A DNA stretch of 64,000 bases from the human T2T-CHM13v2.0 reference genome, Homo sapiens. The stretch lies in NCBI RefSeq assembly GCF_009914755.1, contig NC_060945.1; one strand, 5' to 3'. The notes below the pieces were generated by a model that was not told where the DNA came from, did no database searches, and saw only the letters and a program-made list of their open reading frames with translations. The position numbers and the translations under genes were made by a program. Positions 9,512 to 58,915 of the stretch are shown one piece after another (within the stretch, counting starts at the first letter, position 1; the number at the start of each line of letters is the position of its first letter).

Positions 9512-11052
9512 ACATGCCAGAATAGGCTGTTTTAGGCTAGGTAACTTGCTATGATGTGTATAAATTATATGTTGATCTTAGAAATTAAATTTGGAGGAAT
9601 TGAATAAGTTGAAGGCATTTACCACCATTTATATGGGAAATAAGGATCCCAGAGAGGGCATACTCCATAAAGGTACACACCATTAAAGTTAGTCCAGCTA
9701 GAGAGAAAGGCTGGGTGGGGCTGTGGCAGAGAGGAAATACTTTTATTTGAAGTTTAGATTTGTCATTCTAGAATTGAAGATTATGGTCACCAAGTAATTG
9801 ATAACTTCCAAGTGGCTTCTAGATTAGCCAAAACCTGAATAAATAAAAATAGAGATAATATGAAAGACAATGAAAAGTCTTTGAACTATAACTTATGTGG
9901 GTCTTCTGGCAAGTTTCTTGACCTATTTGAATTTTCTTATCTGTAACAATGGGGATGATAGTATCTTTTCATACGTGCATTGGGAGATTATTGATCATGT
10001 AGTGGTATGCCCGGTACATTGAAGATGATCAATATGGTGGAATAGTTATTGGAATATGAGCAGTTGCTTGTAAGAAGAACAAGTTCCCAGTGAGTAGGTG
10101 GAATAACTGAATTAATTAGTTACATACATATAAGAGAGAAACAAGTTCAAAGTAATAACAATTTTCTCTATGCAAGGATCCACGGGAGGGAAGGGGGGAG
10201 GACTTAAGTTTCATTCAAGAGGAAAAAATATTGTGCTGTCCGTTGTACAGAACTAAAATTTATGTAACCCCTTTGTGCTTAATCTTGTGGGGCAGGCTGG
10301 GCATTGTAACTTGTTCTGTTCAATGGTAATTTAGAAGACATATGCAGGGCTGATGAGCAATTAATTTTCCTTGCTATTTTCTCTCTGCCTCTACTGGCAT
10401 TATTCCTGATAGTGAAGATCCTCTATGCCTGGGTCCCAGAATGAGAATGATTTGGGAGCTGAAACAATGAATGTGTAGTAGGGGTGATAAGTAGACCATT
10501 CCAATTTTAAGCATCTGGAATTTTGAAGTTGTTGGTTGCTAAGGCAAAATGTAGTCTATTTGGGCTAAATAATTCTCTTTTTAACTGTTAGAAAATACAG
10601 GTGCATATTTAATGTTTAAGTAGTAGGACACATGCAATCAGATTCTTGAAAGGATCTATCTTGCCTGCGTTTTTCAGATACTCTTTATTTTCTTTCTTTT
10701 CATTATATTTGTTTAGTGAAACTAACAGTCCTTAACTTCATTGAAGATAATGAAGAACCAAAAGATACTCTTTTCTATATAATTTGAAGACAGTTTACTT
10801 ATAAATAACCATGAAAACTTGTCTTCCTATTCAAGGACATATTATTGGCATAGAAATCAAGAATCGCTGGCAGTGAAAATTTTCTAGTGAAGAAACAATT
10901 ACAATCTCTTAGAATTTGATCAAGTAAAATGGTACAGGTTAAAACAGCACCTGAACTATAAACACAATGGTCCATCAGCCTAAGAACAATTCTTCAACCT
11001 AAAGATAAAATTTCTGTAAAACGCTGTCAGGGCAAGACACTGAAAAGACAAT

Positions 11053-11361
11053 TCAGCATGTTCTTCTAAGAAATGGAGATTGCCAACCCACAAAATCAGA
11101 ACAAGCTGGTTGGAAACTGCTGTGCATGAAGGAAATAGGTTGGAAACTATGAGACACATAATTCAGGGATCTGAAGCTGTTGGATATAGAACCTATAGTT
11201 TGATTACCATAGGAGAAATAGCTCAAGGGATAGCAGGTCCTGGACACAAAATTCAGTGATTGACAGCGACAAAAAATAAAGCTCGGTGATTGACAGCCAT
11301 AAGAGACATGGTTTTGGGGGTGGCAACTACTGAAAAAAAAGCCTTGAGATCTGTTATGCAT
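11053..11361 (-). CDS. KRTAP25-1: Keratin-associated protein 25-1 (102 aa as usually annotated)
   Basis: ATG at 11361 gives MHNRSQGFFFSSCHPQNHVSYGCQ...WQSPFLRRTC*, with decameric repeats (CQSLNFVSRT/CYPLSYFSYG/FRSLNYVSHS). It lacks the family N-terminal domain (see findings). Confidence 0.85.
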   Translation of the reverse strand: MHNRSQGFFFSSCHPQNHVSYGCQSPSFIFCRCQSLNFVSRTCYPLSYFSYGNQTIGSISNSFRSLNYVSHSFQPISFMHSSFQPACSDFVGWQSPFLRRTC

Positions 11362-11690
11362 TGAGGATTGGCAGGAACTTGAGAAATAAGGATTGATATA
11401 AAAACAGCTAGTTGAGTGGCAAGGTCTGGAGACACAGTAAGTAGTAGAAAGCAGCAAGAAATTTTACAAATTGCATGCACACAACTGGATGAATGGTAGC
11501 TGGAAGGTTTACCACATGTCTCTGGGGAGTTTTCTAGAAGTCAAATTCAGCGTTGGTTGGACAAGCACAGAGCATGGTCCCAGTTTACACAAGTAGGCCA
11601 GAGTGCAGTGGATGAGGTGACAAGAACATGGCAGTAACTCCCAAGACAACAGAAGTTGTAGTTTCCATAATAGCAGATGCTGGCTGACAT
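11362..11690 (-). pseudogene. Disrupted N-terminal half of the ancestral KRTAP25 gene
   Basis: ATG 11690: MSASICYYGNYNFCCLGSYCHVLVTSSTALWPTCVNWDHALCLSNQR*I*LLENSPETCGKPSSYHSSSCVHAICKISCC, then a frameshift near 11450 into STTYCVSRPCHSTSCF...SSM(11361). Collinear with the KRTAP26-1 N-terminus. Confidence 0.85.
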
Positions 11691-11790
11691 GACAGAGTCT
11701 GAAGTAAGGCTTTCATTCAGATAAGTAACAAAGAATAGCTTATCTAAGTCTACATCAAACTAGACCAGGTTGCTTCTACACCTTGATAGC

Positions 11791-11802
11791 TATATACTCA
11801 GA
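11791..11802 (-). promoter_or_regulatory. TATA element of the ancestral KRTAP25 locus
   Basis: + strand tatatactcaga is identical to the KRTAP27-1 TATA context (59617-59628) and lies ~100 bp upstream of ATG 11690. Confidence 0.6.
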
Positions 11803-14133
11803 CTCTCTGCCTCCCCATATTTTAGATTAATTTGCATCATAATATCTCATGAACTTAGTGTTGTGTTGCCTATGAAGATAACTTTCTTCCCATTCATAAA
11901 ATAATTTTGGTTTTAATCTTCTATATATCTACAGTTGTAATCTTTCTCCTGTTTATCAGGTTTCAGAATGTGTGTGATGTAATCACTTGTGTATTTTATC
12001 TGCTTTGCTTCTGCTTCCACTCCTAAATAATGCTTAATTAAAAGGAGTCCATTTGAATGGATGTTTATCCTATTCATTATCTACAAGGAACCCCACAGTT
12101 AGGAAGGCATAGTCCTCATCCTGGAAGAAGAGATACAATGTTGCAATGCTTAGAGGAGGTGTTGATGTCCTAAAATAGTTTCCATATATCAAAGTTTCTT
12201 GGATTTTCCAGACAAAATATCTCATGCTATTCGCTGTTTTTCATACTTAGCTGAGAATCTAATTATGTGATGTTGCTATCTGTATATTGTCTTGAGAGTC
12301 AATTTTATATAAGCATGTTAGGGTACATTTTAAAGAGCTCAGCTTTGACAACTTAATATTTTTCATACTTAAAAGTTGTGTTTGATTTCCAAACACTTGA
12401 GAAAAGACATATAATAGTTTTACATGGTAACATTGATGACATATGTGCTTTTATACTAGTGCAAATGTCTTACATGTACCTGTGGTCTTCAAATAAGAGG
12501 ATAAACATGATATCAATAGTCATCAGCTTGTGTACTAGCTTTCCAGAATTAATGGATGTCTTCATCTGAAGCAATTTTTCAGGAGGACCAATTTGGTCTT
12601 CATGCAATGAGCTAAACAAGGATTATGCAAAACTATAATATCACATAAAAAAGATGTCCGAAGCCTGCTTACTTGAATACTATGGAAGGAACAACAATAT
12701 TTTGGATTCTTCCCTAAAGATGCAAGTTAATGTTTACAGGCATCTATTTTCTGGAGTCTCTTGTCTTCCCAAACCAACACATTCCATTCTCAATCATCTT
12801 CTCACTTATCAGCAGTGACGGAGTTGTTCATGAGCAGAGGACACTAAAGATTCCAAGTAGCCACTTGGCATCTTAGAGTATCATTGATGATCCTTCTGTT
12901 GAATACTTTCCTATTGTACAATAGTCCTGTTGTTCCTGCATTGTTCATTGAAGATTCTGGAAGACTGATTATTATTTTAATTTTGCGGAAAAGATATTGA
13001 AATATCTTTTTAATTGGAAGCTTTTACGGAGCATTCAGAAAACTGCAGATATCTCATCACCCATGCAAACATGCACAAAGGAAGAAAAGAAAACAGAGAG
13101 AGACAGAGAAAACACACTTATGATATATTTTGACATTTATTTACATAAACATGACATTTGGTACAGATGTAGTATAAGGTTCTTCCTCTGAATTTCACAT
13201 TTTTTGTTTCAGACAGTGAAAGGAAAAATGTTTGACATTTCACATGGGGAATTTTCACAGTCGATTGCTACATTCTTGTTAAAGAAAGCCTCAGATCACA
13301 TCAATGTAAAAGAGGACTGTTAGGGATAAAAAGGAACAGAAGAGATTGGAATCATCAAGGATTGAGATAAGTTTGAGAATCTGTCTGACATTTTTCCATC
13401 TTCTCTGAGAACCTTAAGCACTCCAGATAAGTGAAATCTTTCAAATCCTTATATGCTTCCAAAGAAGAGTCCTCCAAAGTGAAATATTTTAGTTGAGGTG
13501 TGTGCACCTCCCCTAAATGCCTCATAATTTAGTTGAAGTTTATGTTCACTTCTTATATTCTTTGTAAAATTTGAAAACAAGTGGTAACCAACTAGTCTAT
13601 AAAATATTTTCCTCAGCATATTGGCATGTTACATGAGCGTTCCAAAACCAAAATTAAGGTTTTTCTTTTTAAACCATAGTGAAAACAGATTTGATCTCAA
13701 TAGAACGGCTATTGAAATATATCTGGTAACTGGAAAGTCATTAGGGCCACAGTTATCAAACTAAATATAATCCCATCATTTATCATCAGTAATTAAAATT
13801 TAAGTTAGATGTGGGGCATGTAAATGAGAGAAACCTGGTATCATCAAACAATGTATTGCATCTTGATGACAAATGCCAGAGAAGCCCTATACATATACCA
13901 ACCTGATGCGTGTCCTGATTTATTATTTCTAATTCCATTTATAATTTCTTCAAATGCCTGTAGAGACTAATGGTTCTTTAAGTTTAAAACATCTCCATGT
14001 AGCTACCTGGTTTAATAGCCTGAGATCAAAAAAGCTACTGAGAAGTTATATATTTTGTTTGAAATGACTGGTGGAGGATATGATGAAATTAACATAAAGT
14101 AATAAAAATAGCATTTAAGAGTTCACATTTTCA

Positions 14134-19144: not shown

Positions 19145-19682
19145 TCATGATAATTTTCTTTCATAAGTATACTGCCAGTTGCTCAAGGAAAATAAATATG
19201 GCTGAAAGTTGCTCTATGTATAGCTTATGGGTCTCTAGCAGTCAGACTCGTAGCTAAGAGGTTGGCATCCATAGAACAGATTTCTTAGGGGTTGATGATC
19301 ATAGGTCAGGTAGCTCAGTGGCTGACGGCCATAGGGAAGGGAGTTCAGTTGTTGACAGCTATCAGATTGGTAACTTGGAAGATGGCAGTTGAAAGGCTGT
19401 CTACAGGATTCTGAATAATAAGAACTGGAACTATGGGATGAGATAGGAAGACAGCTAGTTCCTTGATGGGATATGGACTCATCGGAAACAATCGAAGAGT
19501 AGACAGAAGGGCCGCAGGCACCACACCCTCACCACATGACTTGTGACAGTTGTCATGGCACGTGAGCTCCACAGCTCACCTTAGTTATGCAGAGAGCACT
19601 GGGTGAGGTGACAGGAACCTGGTGGGGATTCCAAAGGGAGTGAGAGCTGTAGTTTTCAAAGCAGAAATTGCCGTTAAGACAT
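19145..19682 (-). pseudogene. Unprocessed KRTAP pseudogene (KRTAP25/26-like, PMG family)
   Basis: ATG TCT then a frameshift into NGNFCFENYSSHSLWNPHQVPVTSPSALCITKVSCG / CHDNCHKSCGE / ACGPSVY / HQGTSCLPISSHSSSS...SCQQLNSLPYGRQPLSYLTYDHQPLRNLFYGCQPLSYESDC*RPISYT*SNFQPYLFSLSNWQYTYERKLS*. TATATA at 19768-19773; AATAAA at 18863-18868. Confidence 0.88.
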
Positions 19683-28570: not shown

Positions 28571-29173
28571 TTAGCCAAACTTACTGGAAGGTAAATGCCA
28601 GGTCCTCCAGAGAGAGCACAAGCTTTAGAAATCACCAGAAGCATAGCTCAGAGATCTGAAGTTAGCTGACAATAAGGTTAGCGGTTGGCATCTGCTATGC
28701 ATCTAGTCAATGGCTGGCGACAACAGAAGACATAGGTCAAAGGGAAGCCACTATCAGACATATAGTTCAAGATCTAGTAGATACAAGAGAAGTGGGTCAG
28801 TGGATGGAAGCTGTTAATCAGGAATCTTGGTATGTGGTGTGTGTTGGTGGATGCCCTGAACTACAGACACAGGAAGTGGCAGGAACAAAGTGAGTTTCTT
28901 GGCAGAGTCTGGACACAGGACAATCAGTAGAAGGGCCGCAATAGATTTGACAGTTGCTGAACGCACATTTGGCTGGCTGGCAGCTGGTGGGTTTGTTACT
29001 GTTCTCCTGGCAGTTGTCCAGGACCCAGGTTGGAAACTACTAAGTAAGCAGAGGGCACCTCTTTAGCTCACTCTTCTAGAGCAGAGAAAAACAAATCAGG
29101 AAAAAAGAATGTAGCAATAACTCCTCAAAGAGCAGGAGCTCTCATTTCCAAAGCAGCAGTAGCTGAAACACAT
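28571..29173 (-). pseudogene. Unprocessed KRTAP pseudogene (KRTAP24/25/26-like, PMG family)
   Basis: ATG 29173: MCFSYCCFGNESSCSLRSYCYILFS*FVFLCSRRVS*RGALCLLSSFQ / TWVLDNCQENSNKPTSCQPAKCAFSNCQIYCGPSTDCPVSRLCQETHFVPATSCVCS...ANFRSLSYASGDF*SLCSLWRTWHLPSSKFG*. TATATAA at 29248-29254. Confidence 0.9.
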
Positions 29174-41274: not shown

Positions 41275-41907
41275 TCACAGTCCAGAGCAAGATGGACGAC
41301 ACGTGCTGAACACATGGGTCAGAGGTTGGCAACCACTGAACAGAGGCCCCAGAGGTCTGAGGCTGCTGGACACAACGTGAAGACTTTGAGGACGATAGGC
41401 CAAGCAACTCGAGGGTTGGCATCCAGAAGTGAGGAGGTTTTGGGGCTGGCAACTCTTGGACAAGCAGAATTGGGGGCGATAGGCATTGGGCACACAGTCT
41501 CCTATGGGCTGGTAACTATTGAGCAGCGGCCTCAGTGGACGACAGCCGCTGGACACATACCTCTGTGGTCTACAGGATACTGGAAGGCAGGAACTGGAGA
41601 AGAAAGAAGCAGGAAGAAAACTGCTTCCTTGGCAAGGCCTGGGCACGTAGTAAGCAGTGGAAGAACCGCAAGAGGTTTCAAGATTGCCGGTCTCACAGTG
41701 GACCGGCTGGCAGCTGGTTGGTTCACCGCAGGTCTCTTGGCAGTTGTCTGTGACCCAGGTATGGTCTTGAGAGCTAGTGGGTAAGTAGAGGACATCTCCA
41801 CAGCTCACGCTGGTAGGGCAGAGGTCGATGGAGGTGAGAGGAATATGGCGGGAGGTTCTGAGAGATCCTGAGTTGGAGTTTCCCGAGCAGTAGTTGGGGC
41901 AAGACAT
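41275..41907 (-). CDS. KRTAP26-1: Keratin-associated protein 26-1 (210 aa, single exon)
   Basis: MSCPNYCSGNSNSGSLRTSRHIPL...WVTDNCQETCGEPTSCQP...CRPSCSGL, an intact PMG-type high-sulfur KAP with CRP/CQP decameric repeats. Confidence 0.97.
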   Translation of the reverse strand: MSCPNYCSGNSNSGSLRTSRHIPLTSIDLCPTSVSCGDVLYLPTSSQDHTWVTDNCQETCGEPTSCQPVHCETGNLETSCGSSTAYYVPRPCQGSSFLPASFFSSSCLPVSCRPQRYVSSGCRPLRPLLNSYQPIGDCVPNAYRPQFCLSKSCQPQNLLTSGCQPSSCLAYRPQSLHVVSSSLRPLGPLFSGCQPLTHVFSTCRPSCSGL

Positions 41908-41988
41908 AGTGAGGTTGTGAGAGCAGGCTGAAGTTGAGGCAAAGAAGTGAGTGTCTGAAGTTTGTTCTGCCCTTCCTTAGCTTGACCC

Positions 41989-41997
41989 TTTATTTAT
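41989..41997 (-). promoter_or_regulatory. TATA-like element (ATAAATAAA) of KRTAP26-1
   Basis: 82-90 bp upstream of the ATG, the same spacing as the TATA boxes of the paralogues; CTTTGAA (TCF/LEF-like) at 42290-42296 and 42311-42317. Confidence 0.5.
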
Positions 41998-44564
41998 CCC
42001 TAGAAGGTGGTGCTTCTGCGTGCAGACTCTTCCTCTTGTTGTATGAAGATGCATCAGAACTCTTTATTATAGCCAAGGAAGTGAGGCTTCCACCCTCCAT
42101 AAAACTGGATGCTCCTTGCAATGCCATCCATTGATTACGTCTATCTATAAACCAATGCGACTGAGTTTTAATAGGATCTATCCTTCTTAAATTATCCAAA
42201 CAAAACAGACACATTTTAAAGCCTATGTGCTTATTCCAATTATAACCACCATTGCACAAACATTCTTAAGATTCCTCTCTTAGAATTGTCTTTGAAAGTT
42301 GTAGCAACTTCTTTGAAACAGTGAGAACTTACATCTTTTTGAAGAAAAATTCTATTCTTCTTGGAAATTGCCAGAAGTGAGTAACTTGGAACAAGTATAA
42401 GAGAAAATGAAAATCCTTGCAAACTATATGACAGAAATATGGACAATTTCAATATGTTTTGCTTGGTTAGAATTTATTTTTCTAAGTTGTGATTTGCTTT
42501 ATTTCAGAATTCTATTCAGACTTGACTTTCTACCAAAATATCTTTATTCAAAAATATGTGCTCATTTTAGTCATTTCAATAAATAAATAAGCTGAGTGAA
42601 GCTGAAACCTTGGCTTATGTTTAAGATATTCTTGAATATAGATAATGAAGTTGGGCCAAGTTAAAATTATGTATCCTACTGTGAACAAAAGCAGAGAAGT
42701 AGACCTCTTAAAGAAAGTCAGGCATCTTGACATTTTTCATGATTATTTCAAGGTTATGTATTGCATGGTTTCTCATATTCCAACTGAAAAAATATTGTTC
42801 TTGGTTAAAAAATACACTGATTATGACATGAATTTATTTTGCTTTCTACATTGGCCTTGATGTCAATTTCCAAAAAGGAGCTTCTAAACTGCTTTACATA
42901 GGGAAAAGCATCAGGATAAATTATTGTTTTCCTAAGTTTTAGTACTTTAAAGGTCATTTGAGAATATGTATTTCTGGTAAAATTGTTTTAAAAAATGTAT
43001 GATTTTAGTTAGTTTCAACTATCCCTCTATATTTTTCTCATACTGACATACCCAGTGGCTCCAGTAGCTATTTTAATGGGATTTTAAATTATCTGCTGGC
43101 TCTAAGTTCCAATTCCTTTTGGCTAGTCAATTTAAATCATAACACTTTCTTCTATTTTGGTGTTTGAGGGACATACTTGTGCTTATCCAGTCTCCCTCTG
43201 TCCTGGAGGAGTGAAATCTCTGAAACAGAAAGTTGGTTTCTCAATGAGACAACACTAGACTATTTTACTACTGGGGGAGAAATATAAAAATAAAATGGTA
43301 TAATCCCGGAGGTCCTGTACTAACATGTTGAATTTATCTCAGTATTTTAGGTCAGACGATTTGTACCTGATGTATTTGAGAAAGCCCCACTCACTCCAAC
43401 CCCCAACCCCAGGCCCTCATCACCTAATACTGTTTGTATAACCGGATACTTTGTATACTTCGGACATCACCTAATACTCTGTGTATACAGCTGCTAGAGT
43501 CTTCTTGTAAAATCCTGGTTGCATCAGCTGAATGGCGTTAGTAATAGGTACAGTCATATTTAGCTGAATGCTTATGAAATTGTATGTTGATCCTTTTTAT
43601 GTCTGCTCTTCTCTAATATAAACAAGAGCCCAACATCTGTATCATTAGTACATCAATACGCTTGTGTGTATGTGTGGATAGATGTATATACTACATGTTC
43701 TATGTATACATGGATGGTTTTCCATGAAGAGAAGGGGTGTGGAATAAGAGGAAACTGGCATTCATGGAATGCCTACTCTGAAGAACCTTGTGCTGTGGGT
43801 GCCCACATGTGCCATTCACTTTGTCCTCACAATTCTATACAGTAGATCTTACTATTTCAAGTACTCATACGAGAAAACTTGAGCTTTAGAAAGTTGCAGT
43901 AATAGGTATTACGAAAAACATCTGAAAAAAGGCTCCTTGACTCCCCAAACAGTTTTTCTCTATCCAATATGGCATTACATAGAGATGCATTGATACTATC
44001 ATTTAATAACCAATAACCGTGTGAATTGGGTAATTTGCATAATTGCTCTGCTCCCCAGTCACTATCAGTATAATTTTATGGAAATATTAATAGTATCTAC
44101 TTTTCAGTGACATTTCAGGAATATATTGAGATGTCATTAAAAGTTAAGATAAACTGTAAAACGTTATACAAGAGTAATCTATTTTCTTGCTTTGGCGTTC
44201 TTAACCCATTCTGGAGAGTACGACCTTGGGTTTAATTTCTTTAGAGCACCACCATGAGTTTCTCGTGTGTGTGTGGGGGGGGGGGGCGGTGGGGGGGTAA
44301 AATTGCAAAAATATCAACAGATCTTCAGAAAGTGAAGTACCCTGAATATAAGTTGTCCTTCATGTAATATAGGTTGAACTAAAATTATTTCATAGTGGCT
44401 GTGTCACTAATAGAGAATTGCTTATTTGGGCATAATACCAGGTACCTCATTAGCAGGATCCTATAAACTACATGTTTCAGACTTCTCTTCTGAGTTAAGA
44501 GCCCAGGGATAATCGGAGGAACTGGGCATCCTGTGTGATTTCCCAGATTTACCCATGGCGTTGC

Positions 44565-58830: not shown

Positions 58831-58836
58831 TTTATT
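58831..58836 (-). terminator. Probable polyadenylation signal of KRTAP27-1
   Basis: AATAAA on minus, 80 bp after the stop. Confidence 0.6.
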
Positions 58837-58915
58837 TAAAGAAATACAAAATATCTAAGTATCTCAAAAATAAATTCATCCAAATGAGAATATAAGCCAT
58901 CTCCCCTACAGATCT

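What the first reader, a model, noticed from the sequence alone, without database searches (positions are those of the whole stretch)
11053..11802. KRTAP25-1 looks like the C-terminal stump of a broken ~210-codon gene
Seen: 329 bp upstream of the usual ATG (11361) is a family-typical start at 11690 (MSASICYYGNYN..., G at -3). Its translation aligns with KRTAP26-1 (CHVLVTSSTALWPTCVNWDHALCL vs RHIPLTSIDLCPTSVSCGDVLYL; ETCGKPSS vs ETCGEPTS; STTYCVSRPC vs STAYYVPRPC). It is interrupted by TGA at 11549-11547, TGA at 11543-11541 (the conserved Trp position) and a frameshift near 11450. The conserved TATA (11791) sits upstream of 11690. ATG 11361 has a weak context (T at -3) and several upstream ATGs. 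Inference: the 102-aa protein is probably a pseudogene fragment, or a gene rescued by an internal start, and a transcript from the ancestral promoter would mainly offer a 47-aa ORF.
Basis: partly seen in the sequence, partly recalled or inferred. Interest (0 to 1): 0.78.

Follow-up and report, generated by a model that had tools for sequence, protein, structure and literature searches.

The report
KRTAP25-1 is a broken gene's tail
The human hair-protein gene KRTAP25-1 is the surviving back half of a 212-codon gene whose front half is knocked out, and the sheep and goat gene called KRTAP28-1 is the surviving front half of that same gene.

Summary
On the minus strand, ATG 11690 opens a frame with TGA at 11549-11547 (codon 48), TGA at 11543-11541 (codon 50, the conserved Trp) and a 1-nt deletion that leaves a 2-nt codon at 11450-11449 (codon 81). 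After that the frame is the annotated KRTAP25-1 frame. Read through with X at the three breaks, the locus gives 212 codons. These align without a gap to a 212-aa clouded-leopard protein and match the 639-bp horse KRTAP25 ORF in Khan 2014. The annotated start is the ancestral internal Met111.

Pfam PF05287 covers positions 4-81 in the dead half and 96-171 in the annotated protein. The TATA box and family-type promoter lie upstream of 11690. Eight ATGs precede 11361, and no poly(A) signal lies near the RefSeq 3' end. I found no sign of extra conservation of the 102-codon frame. Papers report no expression in human follicles.

New here: ovine and caprine "KRTAP28-1", published as unrelated to KRTAP25-1, is the orthologous N-terminal remnant with its own frameshift. 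This is a useful annotation and nomenclature correction, not a new kind of biology.

The parts
11791..11906 (-). Ancestral promoter-proximal region, with TATATA at 11796-11791 and the upstream TAATGAGA..TGTTAT and AGAGTCT motifs shared with KRTAP24-1 and KRTAP27-1 (KRTAP26-1 less clearly).
   Evidence: 4 promoters aligned, mean column identity 56%. In one search, the in-frame translation of the upstream part of P0004 matches human 11994-11700, including the tat-ata codons.
11727..11746 (-). 5' leader segment that matches the forward PCR primer placed by Bai et al. just upstream of the ovine KRTAP28-1 ORF.
   Evidence: the only match in the 64-kb window, with 3 mismatches in 20 nt and 0.02 expected by chance.
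11688..11690 (-). Ancestral start codon (codon 1), G at -3.
   Evidence: It aligns with Met1 of P0012, P0013, P0006 and P0008.
11547..11549 (-). Premature TGA at codon 48. The aligned residue is Arg in the carnivore rows and P0004, and Lys in the sheep-like rows. A CGA-to-TGA change is my inference.
11541..11543 (-). Premature TGA at codon 50, at the conserved Trp position.
11449..11450 (-). Two-nucleotide remnant of codon 81 (1-nt deletion). The frame moves from that of ATG 11690 to that of the annotated CDS.
   Evidence: In one search, the tblastn segments of P0012 end at 11454 and resume at 11448 in another frame. The aligned residue is Pro, Leu or Ser in orthologues.
11362..11448 (-). Codons 82-110 (STTYCVSRPC...SSSCQSS). 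They are open in the annotated frame but lie upstream of the annotated start, and they are homologous to coding sequence of the intact orthologues.
   Evidence: z=6.0 against KRTAP26-1 (0 of 1000 shuffles); 55-66% identity to the four full-length carnivore-type rows.
11053..11361 (-). Annotated KRTAP25-1 CDS, equal to ancestral codons 111-212 plus the stop. The start codon is the ancestral internal Met111.
   Evidence: PF05287 positions 96-171 of 180 only. Met at this column in 5 of the 6 rows that reach it in frame; P0016 has Ile.
10684..10689 (-). First AATAAA downstream of the stop codon (364 nt after it). None lies near the RefSeq 3' end at 11016.

Best explanation
The KRTAP25-1 locus is the decayed human copy of a single-exon, 212-codon keratin-associated protein gene of the PMG type (Pfam PF05287; paralogue of KRTAP24-1, 26-1 and 27-1). 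The gene is still intact in carnivores and horse.

In the human copy the 5' half carries three disabling lesions: codon 48 is TGA, Trp50 is TGA, and codon 81 has a 1-nt deletion. The annotated 102-aa protein is the ORF that remains from the ancestral internal Met111 to the ancestral stop. It is half a PMG domain.

The ancestral TATA box and promoter lie upstream of ATG 11690. A transcript made from there would carry eight upstream ATGs with short ORFs of 1-47 aa before ATG 11361, which has a weak context. Translation of the 102-aa frame would therefore be inefficient. The most likely state is a unitary pseudogene whose tail ORF is annotated as protein-coding. That last step is inferred, not shown.

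The same ancestral gene decayed in a complementary way in sheep and goat. There the first 90 or so codons stay open. The frame then slips and runs into a polymorphic (TG)n tract. This remnant was published as a new family, KRTAP28-1.
For: **Shown**

- The lesions and frames are in the sequence.
- P0012 is a 212-aa protein named by NCBI 'keratin-associated protein 26-1', from Neofelis nebulosa. Its residues 1-79 map to 11690-11454 at 50.6% identity. Residues 82-212 map to 11448-11056 at 55.7%, with joint E=2.3e-46. The next-best locus in the window is KRTAP26-1, at 38.8% and E=1.7e-29.
- The human read-through (212 positions, 3 of them X) aligns with P0012 without a gap.
- In the tree, the human read-through groups with P0008, P0004, P0005, P0006 and five carnivore-type rows at 96/95 support. 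Human KRTAP26-1, 24-1 and 27-1 fall outside this group (13 rows, some trimmed as stated in the full report).
- Pfam PF05287: the N-terminal piece covers profile positions 4-81 (18.8 bits, E=0.0018, below the cut-off of 29). The annotated protein covers 96-171 (37.1 bits). The three paralogues cover about 1-179.
- Khan 2014, Additional file 2, lists horse KRTAP25 as a 639-bp intact ORF. In Table 1 and that file, 8 of the 11 species with a copy are flagged as pseudogenes.
- Promoter, upstream ATGs and poly(A): one search gives TATA 11796, 8 upstream ATGs and the first AATAAA at 10689. The RefSeq ends of KRTAP24-1 and KRTAP26-1 lie 22-28 nt after an AATAAA, but the KRTAP25-1 end does not.
- Conservation: human versus felid identity is 51% in the N part, 59% in the middle part and 55% in the annotated part. 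Carnivore pairs show 74-89% in the N part and 76-84% in the annotated part.
- In the closer relative P0002, identity in the CDS frame is 76/98. In translated flanks it is 27/34 and 46/58. The reading frame changes near 11337 and 11047, so the 102-codon ORF is not kept there.
- Literature: expression was not detected in human follicles, as cited (Bai 2019, citing Rogers 2008).

**Sheep**

- P0006 is the same protein apart from one residue and one extra CV repeat unit.
- P0006 was found with E=4.1e-10, matching residues 4-76 to 4-76.
- Its tblastn match is residues 1-112 to 11690-11355, gapless, E=2.7e-15.
- Its frame leaves the ancestral one at about codon 88-93.
- The gene lies between KRTAP24-1 and KRTAP26-1.
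Against: - The 102-codon frame is open. At the lesion density of the upstream part (3 in 110 codons), an open frame of this length has a probability of about 0.06. That is mildly unexpected if decay is old.
- Khan 2014 lists gibbon with an intact 309-bp ORF.
- A 2025 preprint reports a selection signal with a Ser70Cys change in mountain-gorilla KRTAP25-1. The signal covers several neighbouring KRTAP genes.
- The conservation comparisons have low power. Most human-carnivore divergence predates the lesions, and part of the human-P0002 divergence lies on the other lineage.
- P0002, P0003 and P0008 come from gene callers that read TGA as Trp, so their Trp residues may hide stops. I had no DNA of any orthologue.
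- I could not read Rogers 2007 or 2008, nor any transcript, CAGE, Ribo-seq, proteomic or population data.
Confidence: 0.8

Rival explanations
1. This is a real short gene. After the 5' half was lost, transcription from a new start site just upstream of 11361 and initiation at Met111 produce a 102-aa half-PMG protein. The protein is used in hair, perhaps weakly or only in some individuals or populations.
For: - The 102-codon frame is open, and an open frame of this length has a Poisson probability of about 0.06 under the upstream lesion density.
- The protein passes the Pfam PF05287 cut-off (37.1 against 29 bits).
- It keeps 5 of the 7 Cys positions shared by the carnivore rows in this half. 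This is my count on the alignment.
- The gibbon ORF is listed as intact.
- There is a gorilla selection signal.
- Bai 2019 relays the suggestion of population-specific expression.
Against: - No TATA[AT]A lies within 160 nt upstream of 11361, the Kozak context is weak (T at -3, C at +4), and no poly(A) signal lies near the RefSeq 3' end.
- The family-type promoter sits 435 nt upstream, and 8 upstream ATGs intervene.
- Conservation of this frame shows no excess.
- The frame is broken in P0002.
- Khan 2014 flags gorilla and orangutan as pseudogenes.
- Expression was not detected.
- No hair-proteome mention was found in the main texts searched.
Confidence: 0.17
2. The full 212-codon frame is still translated by recoding: TGA read as selenocysteine or read through at codons 48 and 50, plus a programmed frameshift at codon 81.
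For: Both stops are TGA.
Against: - Three separate recoding events would be needed within 34 codons.
- Rfam found no SECIS or other element in 10300-12100. The only match at E<=1 was a snoRNA model at E=0.34, below its gathering score.
- In orthologues the aligned residues are Arg/Lys and Trp, not Cys or Sec.
Confidence: 0.01
3. The upstream similarity belongs to a separate partial pseudogene that happens to lie next to an independent short gene, or it is a chance resemblance in Cys/Ser-rich sequence.
For: Composition-biased KAP sequences can align spuriously. The window does hold other unannotated PMG-type relics.
Against: - The alignment to a 212-aa orthologue is gapless from Met1 to the last codon, and the two halves abut at one 2-nt codon.
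- The total length is one nucleotide short of 639.
- Shuffle controls gave 0 of 1000.
- Phylogenetic support is 96/95.
Confidence: 0.01

Closest known systems
Carnivore 212/211-aa proteins P0012 (Neofelis nebulosa) and P0013 (Odobenus rosmarus), both named 'keratin-associated protein 26-1' by NCBI/UniRef, and the 639-bp horse KRTAP25 of Khan et al. 2014
   Same: P0012 has the same length as the human read-through and P0013 is one residue shorter. Both share its start (Met1) and its end (...QSPF.RR.C). P0012 aligns without a gap. Identity to the human read-through is 46-66% in all three segments. The human locus is their best match in the window.
   Different: They are intact under the standard code in curated or automatic annotation. 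The human copy has two TGA codons and a 1-nt deletion. Their database name (26-1) does not fit the tree. I had no genomic context for them.
Ovine KRTAP28-1 (Bai et al. 2019, PMC6523819) and caprine KRTAP28-1 (Wang et al. 2020, PMC7074440)
   Same: They lie at the same chromosomal place, between KRTAP24-1 and KRTAP26-1. Of the first 80 residues, 38 are identical to the human dead half without a gap, and the sheep Trp50 sits on the human TGA. The 5' flank primer matches 11727-11746. They fall in the same clade.
   Different: The sheep ORF keeps the N-terminal part and loses the rest. It leaves the ancestral frame near codon 88-93 and ends in a polymorphic (TG)n tract. The goat ORF is only 255 bp. 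The authors compared it only with the 102-aa human protein and concluded there is no homology. Reviews of 2021 and 2023 repeat this.
Human KRTAP26-1 (closest paralogue in the window)
   Same: The same Pfam family PF05287, about 210 codons, a single exon, the same strand, and the same order of motifs.
   Different: It is a paralogue, not the same gene (38.8% against 50-56% identity to the carnivore protein; separate in the tree). It is intact, its RefSeq 3' end lies 28 nt after an AATAAA, and the name of the cited Rogers 2008 paper concerns its expression (reference list only).
Unitary pseudogenes whose residual ORF is annotated as protein-coding
   Same: Disabling lesions relative to intact orthologues, loss in many lineages (8 of 11 copies flagged in Khan 2014), and a residual ORF that starts at an internal Met.
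   Different: The locus is still listed as protein-coding (RefSeq row supplied with the finding). Lack of function has not been shown experimentally.

Membership tests
PMG-type keratin-associated proteins (Pfam PF05287) | Match to the PF05287 profile above the gathering score | tested here: met
   the annotated 102 aa score 37.1 bits against a cut-off of 29. The dead N-terminal piece alone scores 18.8 bits (E=0.0018), below the cut-off.
PMG-type keratin-associated proteins (Pfam PF05287) | Coverage of the whole 180-position domain, as in KRTAP24-1, 26-1 and 27-1 | tested here: not met
   the annotated protein covers positions 96-171 only. Positions 4-81 lie in the disabled upstream frame. The paralogues cover about 1-179.
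KAP25 orthologue group (horse KRTAP25; carnivore 211-212-aa proteins) | Best match and common clade with the full-length orthologues, collinear from Met1 to the stop | tested here: met
   E=2.3e-46 against 1.7e-29 for KRTAP26-1; gapless over 212 positions; 96/95.
KAP25 orthologue group (horse KRTAP25; carnivore 211-212-aa proteins) | Conserved position between KRTAP24-1 and KRTAP26-1 | tested here: inconclusive
   Met for human (table supplied with the finding) and for sheep KRTAP28-1. Not testable for the carnivore proteins or the unnamed contigs, because I had no context for them.
Working human KAP gene | Start codon at the family N-terminus with a TATA box about 50-110 nt upstream | tested here: not met
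   the TATA-to-ATG distance is 48 nt (KRTAP24-1), 83 nt (KRTAP27-1) and 106 nt (ATG 11690). No TATA[AT]A lies within 160 nt of ATG 11361.
Working human KAP gene | Transcript end supported by a poly(A) signal | tested here: not met
   the first AATAAA is 364 nt past the stop, and the RefSeq end lies 37 nt past the stop.
Working human KAP gene | Expression in the hair follicle and protein in the hair shaft | not testable with these tools
   Only second-hand statements are available: not detected. The primary papers are not held. No main-text proteomic mention was found, and supplements were not searched.
Unitary pseudogene | Disabling lesions relative to intact orthologues | tested here: met
   Two TGA codons and a 1-nt deletion within codons 48-81.
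Unitary pseudogene | Neutral evolution of the remaining ORF | tested here: inconclusive
   No excess conservation was seen, but power is low and no orthologous DNA was available for dN/dS.

The most novel reading that the evidence does not exclude
One ancestral hair-matrix gene has been split across lineages. Hominoids keep and use only the C-terminal half-domain, started at Met111 from a new TSS. Sheep and goats keep and use only the N-terminal half. Each half-protein would still act in the fibre, as hinted by the wool and cashmere diameter associations and the gorilla selection signal. PMG-type KAPs would then be modular, and either half could suffice to bind keratin filaments.
Probability: 0.08. 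Interest if true: 0.65.

Novelty: new member of a known kind. Interest (0 to 1): 0.45.

Why it matters
KRTAP25-1 is carried as a protein-coding gene in human gene sets, exome panels and enrichment lists. If it is the tail of a dead gene, variant interpretation, 'missing protein' searches and selection scans on it need a caveat.

The truncated human reference also misleads other annotation. The full-length carnivore orthologues are named KAP26-1. The sheep and goat orthologue was described as a new family, KAP28, and the literature states that KRTAP25-1 is the only human KRTAP without a sheep or goat counterpart.

Merging KAP25 and ovine/caprine KAP28 removes one family. It resolves part of a name clash with the unrelated ultra-high-sulphur 'KRTAP28'. 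It also reframes the wool-diameter associations as associations with a decaying locus or with linked genes.

Tried and rejected
- **Word-index search.** The search for homologous proteins with the 80-aa read-through, near lengths, found nothing. The later full HMMER scan showed that relatives exist.
- **Primary papers.** Rogers 2007 and 2008 are not held. Their content is known to me only through citing papers and recall.
- **Sheep reverse primer.** It has no match in the window at up to 3 mismatches. From recall only, this primer and the last residues of the sheep ORF look like a ruminant SINE. I did not test this.
- **Spurious hit.** P0007 (872 aa, 6 stretches) is an unrelated repeat protein. 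I dropped it as spurious, and it is the only hit of that search that I set aside. P0003 is the human-type frame read with TGA as Trp and adds no comparative information.
- **Recoding.** Selenocysteine or read-through is rejected.
- **Khan 2014 supplements.** Additional file 1 (trees) could not be read. Of Additional file 3 I read part 1 of 4, a GENECONV table with nothing on KRTAP25.
- **Hair proteomics.** No main-text mention of the protein was found. The supplementary tables of proteome papers were not searched and could hold detections.
- **Passing mentions of KRTAP25-1 or KRTAP28-1.** For KRTAP25-1, searches are gene lists only. For KRTAP28-1, holds an introductory sentence on gene associations with fibre diameter and a reference-list entry, and searches are reference-list citations only. 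None reports that either protein was detected.
- **Sheep protein from the supplement.** I did not enter the printed sequence into any tool. I compared it by eye until the same protein was returned as P0006.
Full report
**1. The observation**

All coordinates are on the minus strand. ATG 11690 (context GTCATGT, G at -3) opens a 47-aa ORF that ends at TGA 11549-11547. Two codons later there is a second TGA, at 11543-11541. The frame then reads on as ...ETCGKPSSYHSSSCVHAICKISCC up to 11451.

The two bases at 11450-11449 are left over. From 11448 the annotated frame reads STTYCVSRPC...SSSCQSS, then Met 11361, then the 102-aa KRTAP25-1. TATATA lies at 11796-11791. ATG 11361 has T at -3 and C at +4. 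Eight ATGs lie between about 11765 and 11362: 11755, 11716, 11690, 11668, 11629, 11575, 11517 and 11476. Each opens an ORF of 1-47 aa.

**2. Is it more than chance?**

I read the first 80 codons through with X at the two TGA (P0001).
- Its local alignment score exceeds all 1000 shuffles against KRTAP26-1 (z=7.2).
- Against KRTAP24-1, 1 of 1000 shuffles reached the score (z=4.7). Against KRTAP27-1, 27 of 1000 did (z=2.4).
- The 34 residues between the frameshift and Met 11361 give z=6.0 against KRTAP26-1 (0 of 1000).
- tblastn of KRTAP26-1 gives two linked segments in two frames, Expect(2)=4e-17.

In Pfam, KRTAP24-1, 26-1 and 27-1 cover about positions 1-179 of the 180-position PMG profile PF05287. 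The annotated KRTAP25-1 covers only 96-171 (37.1 bits, cut-off 29). P0001 covers 4-81 (18.8 bits, E=0.0018, below the cut-off). The two pieces are the two halves of one domain.

**3. Full-length relatives**

A full HMMER scan of 1.84 billion representative proteins with P0001 gave 8 hits at E<=0.001.
- One (P0007) is an unrelated repeat protein, which I set aside.
- One (P0003) is the human-type frame itself, read with TGA as Trp.
- The other six are relatives from unnamed contigs. Among them, P0008 carries the N- and C-terminal halves in one frame.

With P0008 as the query, the word-index search returned 8 proteins at E<=0.001 among 46 candidates, the query itself included. These include a 212-aa protein of Neofelis nebulosa (P0012) and a 211-aa protein of walrus (P0013), both named 'keratin-associated protein 26-1' by their sources.

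Mapped back onto the window by tblastn:

| Query part | Window match | Identity | E-value |
|---|---|---|---|
| P0012 residues 1-79 | 11690-11454 | 50.6% | joint 2.3e-46 |
| P0012 residues 82-212 | 11448-11056 | 55.7% | joint 2.3e-46 |
| P0012, next-best locus (KRTAP26-1) | 41886-41278 | 38.8% | 1.7e-29 |

The human read-through has 212 positions, three of them X. It aligns with P0012 without a single gap.

I built a maximum-likelihood tree of 13 rows. Before building it I trimmed upstream extensions, the tail of P0008 after its likely stop, P0006 to 92 residues, and P0004 before its off-frame tail. I left out P0002, P0003, P0007, P0009, P0010, P0015 and P0017. The tree puts the human read-through in one clade with P0008, P0004, P0005, P0006 and the five carnivore-type rows, at 96/95 support. 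Human KRTAP26-1, 24-1 and 27-1 lie outside it.

Khan et al. 2014 (Table 1 and Additional file 2; I read passages and searched the table) list KRTAP25 in 11 of 22 mammals and flag 8 of these copies as pseudogenes. The horse entry is an intact 639-bp ORF. The human span 11690-11053 is 638 nt, exactly one nucleotide short. The 309-bp entries for gibbon, panda, rabbit and orangutan have the length of the human query. They probably reflect only the part the human CDS can find. That is my inference, given the 212-aa unnamed row P0011, the closest full-length relative of the 178-aa American black bear protein P0015.

**4. Anatomy of the decay**

- Codon 48 (TGA) aligns with Arg in the carnivore rows and P0004, and with Lys in the sheep-like rows. 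A CGA-to-TGA change is an inference.
- Codon 50 (TGA) aligns with Trp in 8 of the 9 orthologue rows. Outside that alignment, P0010 has Gly there and P0009 has Trp.
- Codon 81 has lost one base and aligns with Pro, Leu or Ser.
- The annotated start is ancestral Met111. That column holds Met in 5 of the 6 rows that reach it in frame, and P0016 has Ile. Conservation of that ATG in mammals therefore says nothing about its use as a start.

**5. Promoter and transcript**

The region upstream of ATG 11690 shares the TAATGAGA..TGTTAT and AGAGTCT motifs and a TATA box with KRTAP24-1 and KRTAP27-1, and less clearly with KRTAP26-1. The in-frame translation of the upstream part of P0004 matches human 11994-11700, including the TATA codons.

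No TATA[AT]A lies within 160 nt of ATG 11361. The first AATAAA after the stop is at 10689. The RefSeq 3' end at 11016 has none nearby, whereas the KRTAP24-1 and KRTAP26-1 RefSeq ends lie 22-28 nt after an AATAAA. The RefSeq record therefore looks like a model drawn around the ORF. That is an inference.

**6. Is the 102-codon frame under constraint?**

I had no orthologous DNA, so only coarse tests were possible.

| Comparison | N part | Middle | Annotated part |
|---|---|---|---|
| Human vs four full-length carnivore-type rows | 46-53% | 55-66% | 51-55% |
| Among those four rows | 74-89% | 79-86% | 76-84% |

The annotated part is not better kept than the dead part.

P0002 comes from a fairly close relative. 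Its caller read TGA as Trp. It matches the human CDS frame at 76/98 residues and the translated flanks at 27/34 and 46/58. Its frame changes near 11337 and near 11047, so the human-type ORF is not kept there. The P0002 cluster has 4 members, which argues against a single assembly error.

At 3 lesions per 110 codons, an open frame of 102 codons has a Poisson probability of 0.06. That is a weak hint either way. The Cys pattern of the dead half is still largely family-like (my count), which suggests the lesions are not very old. This also makes the survival of the tail ORF unremarkable.

Against my reading stand the intact gibbon entry and a preprint that places gorilla KRTAP25-1 (Ser70Cys) among selection candidates together with neighbouring KRTAP genes (one passage read).

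**7. Expression**

Bai et al. [quoted passage not shown] A 2019 paper lists KRTAP25 among the KRTAP genes not expressed in human follicles (one passage). I could not read Rogers 2007 or 2008. Three searches of main texts gave no hair-proteome detection. Supplementary tables were not searched.

**8. The sheep and goat gene**

Bai et al. searched sheep with the 309-bp human CDS and found nothing. They described a 408-bp ORF between KRTAP24-1 and KRTAP26-1 as a new family, KRTAP28-1, and stated that it has no similarity to KAP25-1. Their Figure S1 prints the 135-aa protein.
- P0006, returned with E=4.1e-10, is that protein apart from one residue and one extra CV repeat unit. Both differences correspond to polymorphisms the paper reports.
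- P0006 residues 1-80 match the human dead half at 38 of 80 positions without a gap, with Trp50 on the human TGA.
- Residues 82-92 still follow the ancestral frame (4 of 11 identical to the human annotated frame).
- Residues 93-112 match the human off-frame translation (9 of 20) and not the ancestral frame (0 of 20 to human, 1 of 20 to P0012).
- The sheep copy therefore has its own frameshift near codon 88-93.
- The first 20 bases of the sheep forward primer hit the window once, at 11727-11746, with 3 mismatches (0.02 expected by chance).
- The sheep ORF ends in a polymorphic (TG)n tract, carries a nonsense SNP, and has only non-synonymous coding SNPs.
- The goat ORF is 255 bp.

Later papers of 2021 and 2023 still state that KRTAP25-1 is the one human KRTAP without a sheep or goat counterpart. 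I found no paper that links the two, in searches.

**9. Verdict**

The relic origin is as good as shown. That the 102-aa frame makes no working hair protein is the more likely reading, at about 0.8, but it rests on sequence features and second-hand expression statements. The identity of ovine and caprine KRTAP28-1 with the front half of the KAP25 gene is well supported and appears to be new. This is an annotation and nomenclature correction in a fast-decaying gene family, not a new mechanism.

Noticed in passing
window 19154-19654, minus strand: An unannotated PMG-type KAP relic. P0013 residues 10-209 and P0012 residues 134-210 align here at 30-34% identity, with in-frame stops in the aligned translation. 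It is not in the gene table supplied with the finding.
   Followed up: partly
window 28705-29155, minus strand: A second unannotated PMG-type relic. KRTAP26-1 residues 50-101 align at 52% identity (E=4.8e-11), and further pieces appear in other frames.
   Followed up: partly
window 58836-58884 (KRTAP27-1 3' end): The RefSeq KRTAP27-1 mRNA ends at 58884, before the first AATAAA at 58836. Like KRTAP25-1, this record looks drawn around the ORF. One search lists KRTAP27 among the genes not seen expressed.
   Followed up: no
window 41907-42187 (KRTAP26-1 5' end): The RefSeq KRTAP26-1 has a 280-nt 5' UTR, whereas a TATA-like ATAAATAAA lies only about 85 nt upstream of its ATG. The annotated start site lies upstream of the family-typical position.
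   Followed up: no
literature: There is a name clash. 'KRTAP28' in Khan 2014 is an ultra-high-sulphur family (38% Cys), and human KRTAP28-10 exists. Ovine and caprine 'KRTAP28-1' is an unrelated PMG-type gene.
   Followed up: partly
P0012, P0013: The full-length felid and walrus orthologues of KAP25 are named 'keratin-associated protein 26-1' by their sources. This is probably because the human KAP25-1 reference is only a half-protein.
   Followed up: partly
P0002, P0003, P0008: These database proteins come from mammalian contigs translated with TGA as Trp. P0003 equals the human frame with W at four TGA codons. Trp residues in such records can hide stops: P0008 has W where other rows have Gln or Arg (column of human Gln144) and W at the ancestral stop.
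   Followed up: partly
P0017, P0009, P0010: There is further lineage-specific decay of the same gene. The fur-seal model P0017 begins with 23 residues that match the human off-frame translation of 11515-11447. P0009 and P0010 leave the ancestral frame soon after the ETCG motif.
   Followed up: partly
window 11750-11755, minus strand: A minimal upstream ORF (ATG directly followed by TAG) lies between the TATA box and ATG 11690.
   Followed up: no
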